Part shown: positions 14,791 to 19,612 of the stretch, in pieces
How positions within the stretch are numbered: the stretch's first letter is position 1
Layout of the letters: each line of letters starts with the position of its first letter
Virus record (IMG/VR): IMGVR_UViG_3300020718_000278
Span: 1-64,000 of that record
Direction: 5' to 3' (one strand)
Length of the DNA: 64,000 bases
Source: a virus
Lineage: Duplodnaviria; Caudoviricetes
Position numbers and translations under genes: made by a program
Notes under the pieces: generated by a model
Told to the model about the DNA's origin: nothing
Database searches by the model: none
The model's input: only the letters and a program-made list of their open reading frames with translations

Positions 14791-15645
14791 ATGAATGCAA
14801 ACCCTTTAAGCCAATATTTTAGACAACCAGCAATTTATATCAAACTGCCCAGTCAAGGTAATTATTACCCGCCAGGCTCAATTGAAATGCCGCAAACGGG
14901 AGATATACCGGTACTACCAATGACAGCTATTGATGAAATTACATATCGTACACCAGATGCGCTGTTTAGCGGACAAGCGGTGATTAATGTAATTCAAAGT
15001 TGTGTTCCTGCTATCAAAGATGCTTGGGCTATTCCAGCTATGGATATTGATACTATACTAGTTGGTATTAGAATTGCCAGCTATGGTCACGAAATGAATT
15101 TTGGTACATCTTGCCCAAAATGCACTCACTCAGCTGAATATGGGTTGGATTTAAGAACAATATTAGATAAAATTAAAACACCAGACTATTCTCAACCAAT
15201 CAAGCATGGTGATATTGAAATTTATTTTAAACCTATGACTTATAAGAATTTATCTGAAAATAACAAAATACAGTATGAAGAGCAACGTATATTTCAAAAT
15301 ATAAGTTCCAATGCCACAACTAACGAAAACATAGACGATAATGTAAAACAAATTTCAGCTATGTCTAATGCGTTGAAGAAAATGACAGAAATGACCGTGT
15401 CAGCGTTATCGCAAAGCATCGCAATGATTCGAACACCATCTGCCATGGTATCAGAACACGAATATATTACTGAATTTATAAAAAATTGCGATAGAGGATT
15501 GTTTAGTCGTATTCAAGACTACGTTATTGAAAGAAAATCACAAGCAGAAATGCAACCAGTTGACGTTAAATGTACAGAATGTCAAAATGAATACAAACAA
15601 TCTATTACATTGGACATGACAAGTTTTTTCGAGCCCGCCTCTTAA
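14791..15645 (+). CDS. baseplate hub / tail assembly chaperone, T4 gp26/gp51-like, with Zn-ribbon motifs
   Basis: FRQPAIYIKLPS...PMTAIDEI..., CPKC and CTEC, ends in SFF; AAGGA SD; adjacent to the tape-measure genes. Confidence 0.7.
   Translation: MNANPLSQYFRQPAIYIKLPSQGNYYPPGSIEMPQTGDIPVLPMTAIDEITYRTPDALFSGQAVINVIQSCVPAIKDAWAIPAMDIDTILVGIRIASYGHEMNFGTSCPKCTHSAEYGLDLRTILDKIKTPDYSQPIKHGDIEIYFKPMTYKNLSENNKIQYEEQRIFQNISSNATTNENIDDNVKQISAMSNALKKMTEMTVSALSQSIAMIRTPSAMVSEHEYITEFIKNCDRGLFSRIQDYVIERKSQAEMQPVDVKCTECQNEYKQSITLDMTSFFEPAS
15624..15630 (+). other. candidate -1 ribosomal frameshift slippery site T TTT TTC
   Basis: In-frame AGT TTT TTC. The -1 frame reads FFRARLLT without a stop into the ORF at 15648. 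Confidence 0.6.
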
Positions 15646-15647
15646 CC

Positions 15648-15860
15648 ATGGACTCTGAAGGCATCGGCGAATATGTTGATGGCTTAGATAATGAAATTAA
15701 TGGTATTAGAATGGAGGCGTTAAAAATGGTTTGGTATATGCGAGGCGGACTTAGTTATGAAACTGCTTTGCAACTCAGTGTAGCAGAACGTAAACTCATC
15801 AGTGAAATTATATCTGAGAATATGGAGACCACAAAAAAATCAGGCCTCCCATTTTTTTAG
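15648..15860 (+). CDS. tail assembly protein, gpT-like C-terminal part; probably expressed as a frameshift fusion
   Basis: WYMRGGLSYETALQLSVAERKLI; in the -1 frame relative to the upstream gene; no SD before the ATG. Confidence 0.65.
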   Translation: MDSEGIGEYVDGLDNEINGIRMEALKMVWYMRGGLSYETALQLSVAERKLISEIISENMETTKKSGLPFF

Positions 15861-15964
15861 AAAAGCCAAATACGCATTAATTAAAAATACATAACTGCTT
15901 TTTAGTCATTTGTTTCCTTAAAGCTCTAAACGATTTTTAATTTGATTTATTTTATTTCTTACTT

Positions 15965-16354
15965 AAAAGATTAGCTACGCTAATCTAAGATCTCGTTTAC
16001 ACTCGATCTTATTTTTTGTTTTTGCTTTAGAAATTCCTCATCCAGATTAAGCAGTCACAATTCACCGTATAAACGATGAATTGACCATTTCTCATCCGAG
16101 TTGCACAGTCTTTATTATAAAGAGATTCGTATATACATACGACGGAGGCGGTTGACCGGTACCCCCTACTCTAGCTTCACATATCAACGGAACCCTAGTA
16201 ACCCTATAATAAATCCAAGTCCTATAAGCATGGGGTGTATCTTTTTCACAGAGCCCAAACCATTTGATGCCTTAAGTTAGCAGTTGCCTTTGACGCCCAA
16301 AGTTTTCCAGACCGGGTATTTCACCGTTCCTCGATGGGGATCGAGCTACCTCGA
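15965..16354 (-). ncRNA. candidate large structured non-coding RNA of unrecognised family
   Basis: Longest ORF-free interval in the window, less AT-rich than its flank, at least 8 hairpins read by eye; starts at the GIY-YIG stop codon. Confidence 0.5.
15968..16010. terminator. back-to-back hairpins, probable bidirectional terminator
   Basis: AGATTAGC-TAC-GCTAATCT (15968-15986) and AAGATC...GATCTT (15987-16010), flanked by T-rich tracts on each strand, between convergent operons. Confidence 0.65.
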
Positions 16355-16792
16355 TCAAACTGTGTCGTTTAATTTTTTAATATGACTGCCATGTACACGG
16401 ACTTGTATATGTCCATTGTAGTAGTCGTCAGATTCTAATACACGTCTTTGAAATTGTTCGCGAGCTTCAACGTAACTACATTCAGCCTTGGACCTACAAT
16501 AGTATAGTATTTCGCGAGTAAAGTTGCCTGCGCCTAAGCGTTCGATGTCTTGATTTAATTCTATGTTGCTGCCGTAATATTGCTGCCAATCTGATTCAAT
16601 TTTACTACGAATTCTCTTTTTCTTTTTGGTGCCGTTTTTTTGTTTTACTATTCGATATGTTGTTTTACTAAATTTTGCTAATTTTTTGCCAATATATTTC
16701 CTACCGGTTAAGCTATTCGTTATACAATACACGAAACCGATACACTCTTCTGGTAATGATTCAATTTGGTTGTTTTCAAAAATCCATGACAT
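16355..16792 (-). CDS. minimal GIY-YIG nuclease, catalytic domain only
   Basis: GFVYCITNSLTGRKYIGKK...YYGS...E(ARE)...YYN; no NUMOD DNA-binding tail. Confidence 0.85.
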   Translation of the reverse strand: MSWIFENNQIESLPEECIGFVYCITNSLTGRKYIGKKLAKFSKTTYRIVKQKNGTKKKKRIRSKIESDWQQYYGSNIELNQDIERLGAGNFTREILYYCRSKAECSYVEAREQFQRRVLESDDYYNGHIQVRVHGSHIKKLNDTV

Positions 16793-16810
16793 GGACTAGT
16801 AATTAGCGTC

Positions 16811-16839
16811 ATAATATCCTGAACTGCAAATTTTGTCAT
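16811..16839 (-). promoter_or_regulatory. sigma70-like promoter ATGACA-17-TATTAT upstream of the GIY-YIG gene
   Basis: Minus-strand hexamers at 16839-16834 and 16816-16811 with a 17-nt spacer. Confidence 0.45.
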
Positions 16840-18599
16840 GCTATTTCAATATCCGTATTGTAACTGGTAAATCCATTATCTTTAACTACTTTCAAAATGT
16901 TTTCTACACGACCAGCAAGTTCATCTCTGTGGCTTACCAACCAAATACTCTTATGTCGTTCACGTGACATTTGTTTTAACAAAGCCAATGCTGACTCTAC
17001 TCCTTGTGTGTCTAGCCCATTGTCAATCATTTCATCAATGAATAACACATTAATTGGAGTGTATAGTGATTCAAACACATCGCGGAATGCCCATGCCATG
17101 CTTAAAATTAATCTATTGCGCTCACCTCGACTTAAATTATCAAAATCAAGTTCACGTCCTAGTTCTTCAATACTAACAGTTAAATCATTTTGGAATACTA
17201 CAGTATGCGGCAACCCAATACGATCCAAATAATGTGTTAATCTAACATTTAAATAGGATAAATTTTGTTCAATAATTTTTTTGCGAATAAATGAATCTTT
17301 ATTTGTAAGCAATTTTAATAAAAACTCTTGATGATCTTGAAGTTTTGTTAACTCATTTAATGTGTCATAGGTAACTTCTTGGACTGCTTGTGTTTGCATT
17401 TCACTAATTTGTTCAGCATATGGATCTACTTCGGCTATTTTTTCTTCTAACTGCTTTTGTAAATTAGCTAAATTAGCACGATGCTGAATAGCTTGTTCTT
17501 CTTTGTCATAAAACATTTTGGGAGGTTTACCTAACACGCCCAAGGCGTCGTGGGCAGTCTGTAAACTTGCCAGTCCAATAGCATATTCTTGGCAACTCGC
17601 TCTAGACGTTGCCAGTTCACTCTTCTTGATCTCCATGACCTGTTCGTGCTTCTCGTCGTGAAAGGCTTGACCGCACGTATGGCAGGTATGTGATTCGAGA
17701 GTTTCAATTTCCTTTTCCAATTTAGCCACCGACTTAGCCTCACGGGCTTGATCCAGTTTTCCCCTGCTGATCGCAGACGCAAAATCGTTGATATCTTTAC
17801 GTTTCTGATCCCACAAGCTGTGCGCTTTGTGAGCCTCGATTTCCGCATTAATGTCGATCTCTTGTAGTGTCTCCAGCGCGGTCGTAATTTTAGTTTTCTC
17901 TTCTTCATTTTTAATGACCCACATTCCTTGTCTACGTTTTAATGCTTCAATTTGTTCTTCAATACGTTTGTTAGCATCTTGTACAGCGCGAATACGAAAT
18001 TCCTCTTTTTGTATATCATCTTTGGTAGTGCGATTTAGCTCTTTTATTCGCTCAGCACGTTCGGATAACATAGTAATGCCCAACAGTTGCTCAATAATAG
18101 TACGTTGACTGTTAGCATTTAGTGATAAAAAAGGTTCTGTATAAGTGTTTAACGCCATAATATGCTTAAACATATCATGGCTCATACCTAATAAATGCTC
18201 AATTTCATCTTGTGTTTCACGACTGTCACCTTGAGCATTATCATCTGCTTCAGTTTCTTTATCGTTTACATAAAACTTTAGCAAATTAGGTTTACGTCCG
18301 CGTTCAATTTTATAATCTTGACCGCCTATACTAAAATCTAATGATACCAACATATTTTTACCATTAGTTTTGTTTATAAGGTTGTCACGTTTAATATTGC
18401 TGAGAGCAACGCCATACATAGCATAACTTAATGCGTTGATAATTGTAGTTTTTCCTGTACCATTTCTACTACCATCCCCACCGAGATCTAAATTTTCACC
18501 CAGCACTAAAGTTAAATCTTTTCTGTCAAAATCAATGCCTTGGGTGGCATTGCCCACACTCATAAAGTTCTTTACAGTTAAATTTTTTATTTGAATCAT
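16836..18599 (-). CDS. gp46: recombination ATPase, gp46/SbcC/Rad50-like
   Basis: Walker A NGTGKTT, coiled coil with CHTC zinc hook, signature LSRGE, Walker B LFIDE, H-loop VSH. Confidence 0.95.
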   Translation of the reverse strand: MIQIKNLTVKNFMSVGNATQGIDFDRKDLTLVLGENLDLGGDGSRNGTGKTTIINALSYAMYGVALSNIKRDNLINKTNGKNMLVSLDFSIGGQDYKIERGRKPNLLKFYVNDKETEADDNAQGDSRETQDEIEHLLGMSHDMFKHIMALNTYTEPFLSLNANSQRTIIEQLLGITMLSERAERIKELNRTTKDDIQKEEFRIRAVQDANKRIEEQIEALKRRQGMWVIKNEEEKTKITTALETLQEIDINAEIEAHKAHSLWDQKRKDINDFASAISRGKLDQAREAKSVAKLEKEIETLESHTCHTCGQAFHDEKHEQVMEIKKSELATSRASCQEYAIGLASLQTAHDALGVLGKPPKMFYDKEEQAIQHRANLANLQKQLEEKIAEVDPYAEQISEMQTQAVQEVTYDTLNELTKLQDHQEFLLKLLTNKDSFIRKKIIEQNLSYLNVRLTHYLDRIGLPHTVVFQNDLTVSIEELGRELDFDNLSRGERNRLILSMAWAFRDVFESLYTPINVLFIDEMIDNGLDTQGVESALALLKQMSRERHKSIWLVSHRDELAGRVENILKVVKDNGFTSYNTDIEIA

Positions 18600-19612
18600 A
18601 GATTTTGATATATTTTTAACAACAATTTAGGATCATAAAATTCTGATTCTATATTTGTAATTTGATCAGTAACAATTTGATCAACACTTTCAAATTTTAC
18701 TTCCCCCGGAGCAAGATCTAAGTTTATATCAGTACGTTTAGATGGGATCAGCGCCATTTCTCGTAAATTATAATCTTTAATAAATGTTTCTTTAATAAAA
18801 TTAGCTTCTTCGTAACTAATATCAATATCTAACTCTACACGAACATGCATGTTGGGTACAAATATATTGGCGCCATTATCTATTGCTTCACTTAATTTCA
18901 TAACACGATATAAAGGTTGTCCAGGCCAAGCATGATATACAGGATCTTTGCCCCAATCTAAAACCATCATGCCACGATCACTATCGCCAGCATCGGCAAA
19001 GTTGTGCGGAAAACAATTTCCAATATATGTAACATTTTTTCGAGTTTGGCGTAAGTGGAAATGACCACTAAACACGCTTTCTACTCCTTGAAAATTATCA
19101 ACTTGTATTTCACCGTGGTCTGGCATTTCTACCATAGCATTCATTTTAAAATGTGGCAATTCAAAATGACCAAACATATACTTAGAATTCATTTTACTTA
19201 ATTTTTTATGGTCATCACCTACTAGCCACGGAGCAATTATAACATCATCTTGTTTAAACCAATCATTGACAATTATAATATTGGGAATATGTTTTGCCCA
19301 TTCTGCTCCATGTATATCTCGTTTATCACGATAATATAAATCGTGGTTGCCAGGAATAAAATAAAAAGTATCAAATGCTTTTGATAATTTTTCTATTGCT
19401 TGAACGCTAAATTGTAGTGTTTGTAAATTGATTGAAGCACGGTGATTATGCCAATCACCGAGAAACATTCCAGTTTCGCAACCTTCTTCTTTGGCTTTGG
19501 CAATAAACCAATCAATAAATGTTTCACAATCTCGATTATGTACTAGACTATTGGATTTCAAACCCCAGTGTAGATCCGTACATACTGCTACCTTTTTAAA
19601 TAAATTACTCAT
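18596..19612 (-). CDS. gp47: recombination nuclease, gp47/SbcD/Mre11-like
   Basis: Metallophosphoesterase motifs DLH, GD, GNHD, GH, SGHFH. Confidence 0.95.
   Translation of the reverse strand: MSNLFKKVAVCTDLHWGLKSNSLVHNRDCETFIDWFIAKAKEEGCETGMFLGDWHNHRASINLQTLQFSVQAIEKLSKAFDTFYFIPGNHDLYYRDKRDIHGAEWAKHIPNIIIVNDWFKQDDVIIAPWLVGDDHKKLSKMNSKYMFGHFELPHFKMNAMVEMPDHGEIQVDNFQGVESVFSGHFHLRQTRKNVTYIGNCFPHNFADAGDSDRGMMVLDWGKDPVYHAWPGQPLYRVMKLSEAIDNGANIFVPNMHVRVELDIDISYEEANFIKETFIKDYNLREMALIPSKRTDINLDLAPGEVKFESVDQIVTDQITNIESEFYDPKLLLKIYQNL

What the first reader, a model, noticed from the sequence alone, without database searches (positions are those of the whole stretch)
15965..16354. About 390-nt highly structured non-coding element of no recognised family
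Seen on the minus strand: GATCGAG-GTAG-CTCGATC at the upstream stop; GGT-GAAAT-ACC; CTTTG-GGCGT-CAAAG; GGGGG...CGG-TCAA-CCG-CCTCC; CGTAT-GTAT-ATACG; TCTTTA-TAA-TAAAGA; CAATTCATCG-TTTATA-CGGTGAATTG flanked by the repeat GGATGAG; AAGATC-GA-GT-GTAA-AC-GA-GATCTT (GNRA loop with tandem GA pairs); and a terminal AGATTAGC/GCTAATCT hairpin with U-tract. G-U pairs and the GNRA loop favour the minus strand. It is far longer than convergent termination requires, in a genome with few long gaps. I could not match it to tRNA, tmRNA, RNase P or group I/II intron cores. Inference: a novel phage ncRNA or ribozyme; an origin or packaging signal is the alternative.
Basis: partly seen in the sequence, partly recalled or inferred. 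Interest (0 to 1): 0.85.

Follow-up and report, generated by a model that had tools for sequence, protein, structure and literature searches.

The report
Phage structured RNA, Polynucleobacter-1 relative
The gap holds a real, strongly conserved, about 390-base folded non-coding RNA made just after a small nuclease gene in large uncultured phages; it is an unrecognised variant of an orphan RNA family described in 2010 (Polynucleobacter-1), and its function is still unknown.

Summary
Window 16356-15965 (minus strand) encodes a structured RNA.

- More than 119 IMG/VR contigs carry it, and 98 non-redundant full-length relatives are 67-82% identical to it.
- A 15-helix model with one pseudoknot is paired in 92.8% of cells, against 82.6% in shuffles (0/500). 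56 of 88 pairs show compensatory changes.
- There is no coding signal.

The window RNA has no Rfam hit. However, a sister group at the same locus, directly after the same 145-aa GIY-YIG gene, carries Rfam RF01718 (Polynucleobacter-1 RNA, Weinberg 2010, function unknown) as its 5' domain. That group shares the window RNA's 3' part of about 250 nt. The window RNA is therefore a 5'-domain-swapped variant of a known orphan family, here placed in relatives of the jumbo phage PA5oct.

New points:
- The whole RNA is about 390-450 nt long.
- A 3' module is conserved in all subgroups.
- Two 7-nt direct repeats inside that module are identical to each other in 160/161 loci, yet differ between phages in at least 10 types. 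This concerted evolution is unexplained.
- Two loci lack the GIY-YIG gene and have a PD-(D/E)XK nuclease gene upstream of the RNA instead; it is directly adjacent in one of them.

The mechanism is open. My best guess, at about 30%, is a stable trans-acting RNA with guide-like or scaffold function.

The parts
16355..16792 (-). 145-aa stand-alone GIY-YIG nuclease gene (SegE-type, phrog_447). The RNA starts at its stop codon.
   Evidence: Pfam PF19835, E 2e-32, full profile. phrog_447, E 4e-38. 40% identical to P-SSM2 PSSM2_218.
16339..16356 (-). H0: hairpin overlapping the stop codon (RNA positions 5-22; RNA position p = window 16361-p).
   Evidence: Covaries in A1: 5 of 6 pairs change on both sides. 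It is badly aligned in A2 (56% paired). It is also present, with a different sequence, where another ORF precedes the RNA.
16296..16338 (-). P1 (CCCA/UGGG) enclosing hairpin P2 (GGA-CGG / CCG-UCU).
   Evidence: helices 2 and 3: 100% and 99% paired; 8 of 10 pairs have compensatory changes.
16268..16282 (-). P3 hairpin with the conserved loop AACUUAA.
   Evidence: helix 4: 97.5% paired; 3 of 4 pairs change on both sides.
16231..16262 (-). 5' strand of the long-range helix P4 (UGGUU, 16262-16258), followed by hairpin P5.
   Evidence: P5: helices 6 and 7, U-A/G-C/C-G exchange at 46/36/6. P4: 93.5% paired but with one-sided changes only, so it is tentative.
16200..16221 (-). P6 hairpin. Its loop (16213-16206) is the 5' strand of pseudoknot PK1.
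   Evidence: helices 8 and 9. The MI analysis found PK1 independently.
16144..16199 (-). Nearly invariant core: junction ACUAGGGUUCCGUUGAUAUGUGAAGCU, the 5' strand of P8 (AGAG) and hairpin P9 (GGGGGU-ACC-GG-UCAA-CC-GCCUCC).
   Evidence: Invariant columns in 92 sequences. P8 pair A-U/U-A at 49/43 and P9 pair G-C/A-U at 67/25. The core pattern finds at least 119 viral contigs.
16129..16140 (-). P10: variable hairpin, and an insertion site in some relatives.
   Evidence: helices 13 and 14: every pair covaries.
16111..16124 (-). 3' strand of P8 (CUCU, 16124-16121) and 3' strand of PK1 (16118-16111).
   Evidence: helices 9 and 10. In group 2, all 32 of 32 sequences keep a perfect complement of at least 6 nt at the equivalent place, with at least 8 different sequences.
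16090..16100 (-). Direct repeat R1 (CUC-GGAUGAG-A); its variable 7-mer is 16097-16091.
16058..16083 (-). P11 hairpin between the two repeats.
   Evidence: helix 15. The sequence differs but the hairpin is kept in group 2 (UUUGCCC..GGGCAAA) and group 3.
16052..16056 (-). 3' strand of P4 (GACUG here; GACCA in most relatives).
   Evidence: helix 5 (tentative).
16036..16046 (-). Direct repeat R2 (UCU-GGAUGAG-G); its variable 7-mer is 16043-16037.
   Evidence: The 7-mer is identical to that of R1 in 160/161 loci.
15987..16035 (-). A-rich linker, then hairpin P12 with tandem G.A pairs and a GNRA-like loop.
   Evidence: helices 16 and 17: all 8 pairs have compensatory changes.
15965..15986 (-). P13 terminal hairpin plus a short U tract; the likely intrinsic terminator.
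   Evidence: helix 18: 7 of 8 pairs are compensatory. Conservation stops just after it. The consensus terminator scan did not call it.

Best explanation
It is a non-coding RNA gene of about 390 nt. It is transcribed on the minus strand as the tail of the GIY-YIG nuclease transcription unit, since its first hairpin overlaps the stop codon, and it ends at a hairpin followed by a U tract.

It belongs to a modular RNA family of uncultured, mostly freshwater large phages; by gp46 the nearest isolate is Pseudomonas phage PA5oct. One subgroup of this family carries the Rfam motif Polynucleobacter-1 (RF01718) as its 5' domain. The window RNA has a different 5' domain but shares the central pseudoknotted core (P6/PK1/P8/P9) and the 3' module (R1, hairpin, R2, A-rich linker, GA hairpin, terminator).

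Inferred, not shown: the RNA accumulates as a stable trans-acting molecule. The conserved core serves as a folding or protein-binding scaffold. The two identical, fast-changing 7-nt segments R1 and R2 are specificity determinants that contact the same external partner, in the manner of a guide or seed. The RNA possibly works together with the small nuclease encoded upstream.

Confidence that it is a real RNA of this family: about 0.9. Confidence in the guide/scaffold mechanism: about 0.3. The single confidence number given for this explanation (0.4) is a compromise between the two.
For: Conservation: the gap is 72-89% identical by blastn in 35 of 80 loci that were found through the protein alone. 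The core pattern finds at least 119 viral contigs. nhmmer finds the element in 189 loci.

Structure: covariation statistics, the MI-detected pseudoknot, and the same pseudoknot in group 2.

Not coding: stops in all frames, indel lengths not multiples of three, no 3-base periodicity.

Family link: RF01718 hits at 81-119 bits in 19 of 20 group-2 loci, directly after the GIY-YIG stop. The group-1 HMM aligns to the 3' part of the same RNAs. The supplement of Weinberg 2010 places the motif downstream of GOS11034/PSSM2_218-like genes, and its alignment shows a 'tail' with a pseudoknot. PSSM2_218 is a homologue of the window's protein.

Link to a nuclease: a GIY-YIG gene lies upstream in nearly every locus with enough flank. 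L140 and L154 lack it and have a PDDEXK_15 nuclease gene upstream instead. It is adjacent to the RNA in L140; in L154 a 261-aa ORF lies between them.

Specificity segments: R1 = R2 in 160/161 loci, with at least 10 types. There are at least 16 changes on the tree and 9 of 9 independent pairs are concordant, p 0.004. No partner exists inside the RNA.
Against: No external target was found. The RNA's own 7-mer and its complement are neither enriched nor depleted in about 8 kb of flanking DNA per locus.

No GIY-YIG residue tracks the repeat type: the maximum MI is 0.34 of about 1 bit.

Homologous GIY-YIG genes in cultured phages (Melnitz, P-SSM2, Bellamy, phiN3) have no such RNA next to them, so the protein family does not need the RNA.

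Seven nucleotides is short for a guide.

The terminator is weak by consensus rules.
Confidence: 0.4

Rival explanations
1. The RNA is an independent phage ncRNA of some other function. The nuclease genes beside it are selfish free-standing homing endonucleases that use the extremely conserved RNA gene as a homing target or safe neighbour, so the linkage reflects homing rather than joint function.
For: Two unrelated nuclease families occupy the upstream position (GIY-YIG, and PDDEXK_15 in L140 and L154). The junctions around the RNA are insertion hot spots: at least 4 unrelated ORF families lie between GIY-YIG and the RNA, and there are variable inserts on both sides. PHROG also relates the protein to homing endonucleases. 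From general knowledge, T4 segB sits among the tRNA and stable-RNA genes. In phage Bellamy a tRNA array lies about 250 nt downstream of the homologue, after one small ORF.
Against: The 145-aa protein has only the catalytic domain and no DNA-binding domain. It is present in almost all loci and is conserved about as well as gp46 (66-83% against 54-92%), which is unlike a sporadic selfish gene. This explanation also leaves the RNA's own function open.
Confidence: 0.3
2. It is a cis-acting 3' UTR element of the nuclease mRNA. It would control that mRNA's stability or 3' processing, or act as an RNA inhibitor (antitoxin-like) of the nuclease made from the same transcript.
For: The RNA begins at, or overlaps, the stop codon, and no σ70-type promoter-like site was called between the gene's start region and the RNA. 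It always follows a small nuclease gene.
Against: Some 390-450 nt with pseudoknots and a stretch of about 60 invariant nucleotides is far more than known 3' stabilisers need. In several loci a 275-356-aa ORF separates the nuclease gene from the RNA. Nuclease homologues elsewhere lack the RNA. The concerted 7-mers are not explained.
Confidence: 0.15
3. It is a DNA-level or mixed element: a replication origin whose structured transcript primes synthesis, as in ColE1 RNA II or the T4 R-loop origins. R1 and R2 would be iteron-like sites for a cognate DNA-binding protein. A packaging site is a related possibility.
For: Direct repeats about 54 bp apart that stay identical within a genome while differing between genomes are typical of iterons (general knowledge). 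Concordance is shown.
Against: Compensatory changes that include strand-specific G-U pairs show selection on the RNA fold. No cognate initiator gene was identified. The locus is a convergent gene junction, and the skew profile shows no shift there.
Confidence: 0.1
4. It is a self-cleaving or otherwise catalytic RNA (ribozyme), for instance one that processes the transcript at R1 and R2 to release the hairpin of about 53 nt.
For: A nearly invariant core of about 60 nt with pseudoknots is ribozyme-like. Identical sequences at two sites could be two cleavage sites.
Against: There is no match to any ribozyme family in Rfam. The invariant core is absent from group 3, and its junction sequence differs in group 2. 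There are no activity data.
Confidence: 0.07
5. It is decayed coding sequence: the lost C-terminal DNA-binding domain of a longer Seg-type endonuclease, or a small protein gene.
For: Full-length Seg/I-TevI enzymes are 200-250 aa and this one is 145 aa. The gap could hold about 130 further codons.
Against: The homologues listed are 142-161 aa, most of them 143-146 aa. There are 6.6-8.7 stops per frame, indels are not in threes, and there is no codon periodicity. Covariation follows base pairing.
Confidence: 0.01

Closest known systems
Polynucleobacter-1 RNA motif (Rfam RF01718; Weinberg et al. 2010, PMC2864571)
   Same: Same genomic place: directly downstream of the PSSM2_218/GOS11034-type 145-aa GIY-YIG gene. 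Same habitat (freshwater and estuary metagenomes). RNAs that carry RF01718 share with the window RNA the hairpin-loop pseudoknot, helix P8, hairpin P9, the R1-hairpin-R2 module, the GA hairpin and the terminator. Function is unknown for both.
   Different: The 141-nt region modelled by Rfam is not present in the window RNA, which has a different 5' domain (H0, P1/P2, P3, P5) and no RF01718 hit even at E<=10. The published motif did not include the 3' module or the concerted repeats, and at that time it was not found in any sequenced phage.
Large orphan phage-associated ncRNAs (GOLLD, ROOL)
   Same: Large, elaborately folded RNAs of unknown function, discovered by comparative genomics, often in phages and lake metagenomes (general knowledge).
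   Different: No sequence or structure match (Rfam). The window RNA is smaller, and it has a fixed position after a nuclease gene.
T4 stable RNAs (species 1 and 2) next to segB in the tRNA cluster
   Same: Stable RNA genes of unknown function lying beside a Seg-type GIY-YIG gene in a T4-like genome (general knowledge). In cyanophage Bellamy a tRNA array lies about 250 nt downstream of the homologue, after one small ORF.
   Different: No homology was tested or known. The T4 RNAs are much shorter and form part of a tRNA operon. ARAGORN finds no tRNA in this window.
Guide RNAs of mobile-element nucleases (omega RNA of IscB/TnpB, IS110 bridge RNA)
   Same: A structured RNA encoded next to a small nuclease gene, with constant scaffold parts and short variable segments.
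   Different: No homology. The variable segment here is only 7 nt and is present twice in identical form. The nuclease families are different (GIY-YIG, PD-(D/E)XK). No target is known and no protein-RNA co-variation was found. This is an analogy only.

Membership tests
Rfam RF01718 Polynucleobacter-1 | cmscan score at or above the gathering cut-off of 37 bits | tested here: not met
   The window has no hit at the gathering threshold, nor at E<=10 on 15700-17000. Five group-1 relatives also have none at E<=1. 19 of 20 group-2 relatives score 81-119 bits.
Rfam RF01718 Polynucleobacter-1 | Location downstream of a GOS11034/PSSM2_218-like gene (supplement of Weinberg 2010) | tested here: met
   The RNA starts at the stop codon of the GIY-YIG gene. 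PSSM2_218 is 40% identical to that protein, E 2e-20.
Rfam RF01718 Polynucleobacter-1 | Homology to the unmodelled 3' 'tail' of the published alignment (hairpin, pseudoknot, GGUACCGG..CCGCC hairpin) | tested here: met
   The group-1 HMM hits group-2 loci over HMM positions of about 185-400, E 1e-21 to 5e-6. The pseudoknot is kept with covariation in both groups. The tail and pseudoknot annotation appears in the authors' Stockholm file.
Group I intron | Match to the catalytic core, and flanking exons of an interrupted gene | tested here: not met
   No RF00028 hit at E<=10. The upstream gene is complete, and no minus-strand ORF follows.
tRNA / tmRNA | Cloverleaf or tRNA-like domain detectable by ARAGORN | tested here: not met
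   ARAGORN finds 0 genes in the window.
Type III toxin-antitoxin RNA antitoxin | Tandem array of whole repeat units of about 34-45 nt upstream of the toxin gene | tested here: not met
   Only 7-11 nt are repeated, twice, about 54 nt apart, and downstream of the nuclease gene.
3'-UTR-derived Hfq-type sRNA | Terminator hairpin with a U tail, an A-rich (ARN) stretch, a single-stranded seed, and a demonstrated mRNA target | tested here: inconclusive
   The hairpin with a short U tract and the A-rich linker are present. No target was found. Hfq binding cannot be tested with these tools.
Pfam PF19835 SegE-type GIY-YIG (the neighbouring protein) | Full-length domain match above the cut-off | tested here: met
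   E 2e-32, 112.5 bits against a cut-off of 25, profile positions 1-123 of 123.

The most novel reading that the evidence does not exclude
The RNA is the specificity subunit of a new kind of phage ribonucleoprotein. A minimal nuclease without a DNA-binding domain (GIY-YIG, exchangeable for PD-(D/E)XK) would be aimed by a scaffold RNA that carries two identical 7-nt guide segments. The frequent concerted switching of those segments would then reflect retargeting, for example against competing phages or host sequences.
Probability: 0.1. Interest if true: 0.9.

Novelty: new variant of a known kind. Interest (0 to 1): 0.6.

Why it matters
An Rfam motif that has been an orphan since 2010 now has three things it lacked.
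- A home: large uncultured phages related to PA5oct, always after a small nuclease gene.
- A full extent: about 390-450 nt, with a pseudoknotted core and a 3' module common to all subgroups.
- A second major subgroup that current Rfam models miss, so annotation pipelines leave these gaps blank.

The concerted evolution of two 7-nt segments gives a concrete, testable handle on function. It points to a sequence-specific partner that differs from phage to phage. If that partner is a nucleic acid recognised together with the adjacent nuclease, this would be a new RNA-directed system. If not, it is still one of the larger conserved phage ncRNAs with no known role.

Tried and rejected
- **Pseudogene or coding reading.** Rejected.
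- **Rfam.** Searched at gathering and permissive thresholds on the window: nothing but noise.
- **tRNA/tmRNA.** None found.
- **Cultured phages.** A blastn search of the gap against 50,697 phage records gave no match. A covariance model of the R1-P11-R2 module (R1) found one copy in the window and none in the loci fetched from Melnitz, phiN3, Bellamy, PA5oct and P-SSM2.
- **Cellular genomes.** I scanned them with a 16-base core pattern. That pattern was too short: almost all of the 120 hits were chance matches in high-GC genomes, and only L305 was real.
- **Reaching the Polynucleobacter chromosome copy.** Attempted through the genome search; no route was found.
- **Partner for the repeats.**
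  - No complement inside the RNA.
  - No own-type enrichment or avoidance in flanking DNA. The absence of GGATGAG elsewhere in this contig (0 outside the RNA; 5.8 expected for the whole contig) is not borne out across loci.
  - No pairing between the linkers that precede R1 and R2.
  - No GIY-YIG residue tracks the repeat type.
- **K-turn reading of P12.** Rejected by inspection: the extra bases lie on the wrong strand.
- **CsrA-sponge reading of GGA in the repeats.** Rejected: about half of the family has AGA.
- **Small ORF starting at the AUG in R1.** Rejected: not conserved.
- **Inserted ORFs between the nuclease gene and the RNA.** No Pfam or PHROG family.

Full report
**Setting**

The window comes from an 82.6-kb IMG/VR phage contig. 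On the minus strand lie three genes in a row:
- a gp47-like phosphoesterase gene (18596-19612);
- a gp46-like SMC/AAA gene (16836-18599);
- a 145-aa GIY-YIG gene (16355-16792), which matches Pfam PF19835 over the full profile.

Two plus-strand genes converge on this block: a T4_baseplate-family gene at 14791-15645 and a 70-aa ORF at 15648-15860. By gp46 the nearest cultured phage is the Pseudomonas jumbo phage PA5oct, at 51.5% amino-acid identity. PA5oct has neither the GIY-YIG gene nor the RNA at this junction.

Folding the single sequence gives only a modest signal: z = -2.19 on the minus strand and -1.40 on the plus strand. The comparative evidence is decisive.

- I fetched 80 viral loci through the GIY-YIG protein alone. 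In 35 of them blastn finds the gap, at 72-89% identity for the strong matches.
- An HMM finds the element in 189 fetched loci.
- 98 non-redundant full-length copies are 67-82% identical to the window's copy.

RNAalifold found 73 pairs, 30 of them with compensatory changes. An MI analysis found the same helices and also a pseudoknot. I then wrote out a model of 88 pairs and tested it on 92 sequences:

| Measure | Model | Shuffled | Partners slid |
|---|---|---|---|
| Cells paired | 92.8% | 82.6% (0/500) | 37-46% |
| Covariation score | 0.310 | 0.133 | at most 0.062 |

56 of the 88 pairs change on both sides.

G-U pairs and the terminal hairpin fix the strand as minus. The region does not code for protein. 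Each frame holds 6.6-8.7 stops, indel lengths are mostly not multiples of three, and variability shows no 3-base period. It is also not a decayed C-terminal domain of the nuclease.

**Anatomy**

RNA position p corresponds to window coordinate 16361-p.

| Element | Window coordinates | Notes |
|---|---|---|
| H0 | 16356-16339 | Hairpin overlapping the stop codon |
| P1/P2 | 16338-16296 | P1 encloses hairpin P2 |
| P3 | 16282-16268 | Conserved loop AACUUAA |
| P4 | 16262-16258 with 16056-16052 | Tentative long-range helix; one-sided changes only |
| P5 | 16257-16231 | Hairpin |
| P6 | 16221-16200 | Its loop pairs with 16118-16111 to form pseudoknot PK1 |
| Junction, P8 5' strand, P9 | 16199-16144 | Nearly invariant; P8 (16172-16169 with 16124-16121) encloses P9 and P10 |
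| P10 | 16140-16129 | Variable hairpin |
| R1 | 16100-16090 | Direct repeat |
| P11 | 16083-16058 | Hairpin between the repeats |
| R2 | 16046-16036 | Direct repeat |
| Linker | 16035-16011 | A-rich |
| P12 | 16010-15987 | Tandem G.A pairs |
| P13 | 15986-15965 | Terminal hairpin with a short U tract |

For CTTTG/CAAAG the supported pairing is P1. For TCTTTA/TAAAGA the supported pairings are P8 and PK1. The consensus terminator scan did not call P13. However, P13 covaries in 7 of 8 pairs, and conservation ends just after it.

**What family is it?**

The window itself matches no Rfam model. The protein-anchored loci fall into three groups.
- Group 1 resembles the window over its full length.
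- In group 2 (35 non-redundant loci) only HMM positions of about 185-400 align.
- Group 3 (two loci) keeps only the 3' module.

A permissive Rfam scan of relatives showed that the 5' domain of group 2 is RF01718, the Polynucleobacter-1 RNA. It scores 81-119 bits against a cut-off of 37, in 19 of 20 loci, and begins right after the GIY-YIG stop codon.

The paper that described this motif (Weinberg et al. 2010, PMC2864571) reports 16 representatives, from freshwater/estuary metagenomes and from Polynucleobacter sp. QLW-P1DMWA-1. [quoted passage not shown] It adds that the 3' half 'is not always detected', and that no example was found in a sequenced phage. The authors' alignment annotates a 'tail' with a putative pseudoknot. 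Its printed flanks contain the same repeat-hairpin-repeat module.

I confirmed that PSSM2_218 is a 145-aa homologue of the window's protein: 40% identity, E 2e-20. I also confirmed that group 2 keeps the pseudoknot, with at least 8 different complementary sequences in 32 of 32 RNAs. The searchable literature contains no later work on this motif.

The window RNA is therefore a 5'-domain-swapped variant of the Polynucleobacter-1 RNA family. It fails the Rfam membership score, but it is homologous over the core and the 3' module.

**Linkage to nucleases**

In essentially every locus with enough upstream sequence, the GIY-YIG gene precedes the RNA. It is usually directly adjacent. In some loci an ORF of 275-356 aa lies in between; these ORFs belong to at least four unrelated families with no Pfam or PHROG match.

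Two loci (L140, L154) lack the GIY-YIG gene. There a PDDEXK_15 nuclease gene lies upstream of the RNA. It is directly adjacent in L140; in L154 a 261-aa ORF lies between them.

The GIY-YIG family (phrog_447, often mis-named 'NAD synthetase') is widespread in Kyanoviridae and in other T4-like phages that have no such RNA. The protein family therefore does not depend on the RNA.

**The concerted repeats**

R1 reads CUC-[7-mer]-G and R2 reads UCU-[7-mer]-R. Within a genome the two 7-mers are identical in 160 of 161 loci. Between genomes the 7-mer varies: GGAUAAU, AGAUAAU, AGAUGAU, GGAUGAU, AGAUGAA, AGAUCAA, ACAUGAA, and GGAUGAG in this window. The Polynucleobacter copy printed in the 2010 supplement has AGCGAAA.

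On a tree built without the repeat columns, the first variable site changes at least 16 times, and 9 of 9 independent contrasts are concordant, p about 0.004. All four A/G combinations exist at two sites only 4 nt apart. Simple recombination therefore cannot produce the concordance. Selection or conversion must keep the two copies equal.

I looked for the reason and found none:
- no complementary partner inside the RNA;
- no enrichment or avoidance of the RNA's own 7-mer in flanking DNA;
- no pairing between the linkers that precede the repeats;
- no GIY-YIG residue that tracks the repeat type.

This remains unexplained.

**Mechanism**

Shown here: a conserved, folded RNA, co-oriented with a small nuclease gene and abutting it, with a hairpin and a short U tract at its end.

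Inferred: it accumulates as a stable RNA. The core acts as a scaffold. The two equal 7-mers contact one external, phage-specific partner, in a guide- or seed-like way, possibly together with the nuclease. I put this at about 0.3.

Rivals, with my estimates:
- An independent ncRNA next to selfish homing nucleases (0.3). This fits the exchange of nuclease family and the insertion hot spot. It fits poorly with a near-universal, well-conserved nuclease that consists of a catalytic domain only.
- A cis-acting 3' UTR or antitoxin-like element (0.15).
- An origin with a primer RNA and iterons (0.1).
- A ribozyme (0.07).
- Decayed coding sequence (refuted).

**Verdict**

The finding is real and well supported. 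Through its relatives, the RNA belongs to the orphan Polynucleobacter-1 family. What is new:
- the phage assignment;
- the full extent of the RNA;
- a subgroup that Rfam misses;
- the exchange of the neighbouring nuclease;
- the concerted 7-mers.

Function is unknown. The repeats offer a direct experimental entry point.

Noticed in passing
L004:3365-4435, L029:3428-4255, L006:3440-4453, L086:4369-5259 (and relatives): In several related phages an ORF of 275-356 aa sits between the GIY-YIG gene and the RNA. These ORFs fall into at least four mutually unrelated families with no Pfam or PHROG match, so this junction is an insertion hot spot.
   Followed up: partly
L140:2293-2805 and L154:1011-1517: In two loci that lack the GIY-YIG gene, a 168-170-aa PDDEXK_15 (PF24608) nuclease gene lies upstream of the RNA. 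It is adjacent in L140; in L154 a 261-aa ORF lies between. Two or three radical-SAM genes lie upstream, between it and gp46.
   Followed up: partly
window 16355-16792; L326:212-649 (P-SSM2 PSSM2_218): This GIY-YIG family (phrog_447) is labelled 'NAD synthetase' in many GenBank phage records. The label looks like a propagated mis-annotation, because Pfam assigns the whole protein to the SegE-type GIY-YIG domain.
   Followed up: partly
L203:3474-5756 (Synechococcus phage Bellamy): In this cyanophage a tRNA gene array lies about 250 nt downstream of the homologous GIY-YIG gene, after one small ORF. The arrangement recalls T4 segB within the tRNA cluster.
   Followed up: no
window about 15828-15862, plus strand: A GC-rich hairpin (GGAGACC...GGCCTCC) followed by a T run overlaps the end of the 70-aa ORF. 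It looks like the terminator of the convergent plus-strand genes. About 100 AT-rich bases separate it from the end of the RNA gene.
   Followed up: no
Weinberg 2010 supplement, NC_009379.1:2130672-2131206: The chromosomal Polynucleobacter copy of the motif also has the repeat-hairpin-repeat module, with yet another concordant 7-mer (AGCGAAA). I could not inspect its gene context with these tools.
   Followed up: partly
L020:3651-3742 and L074 (alignment A1, columns 241-375): Some relatives carry insertions of 40-90 nt exactly at the variable hairpin P10, so this position tolerates extra sequence.
   Followed up: no
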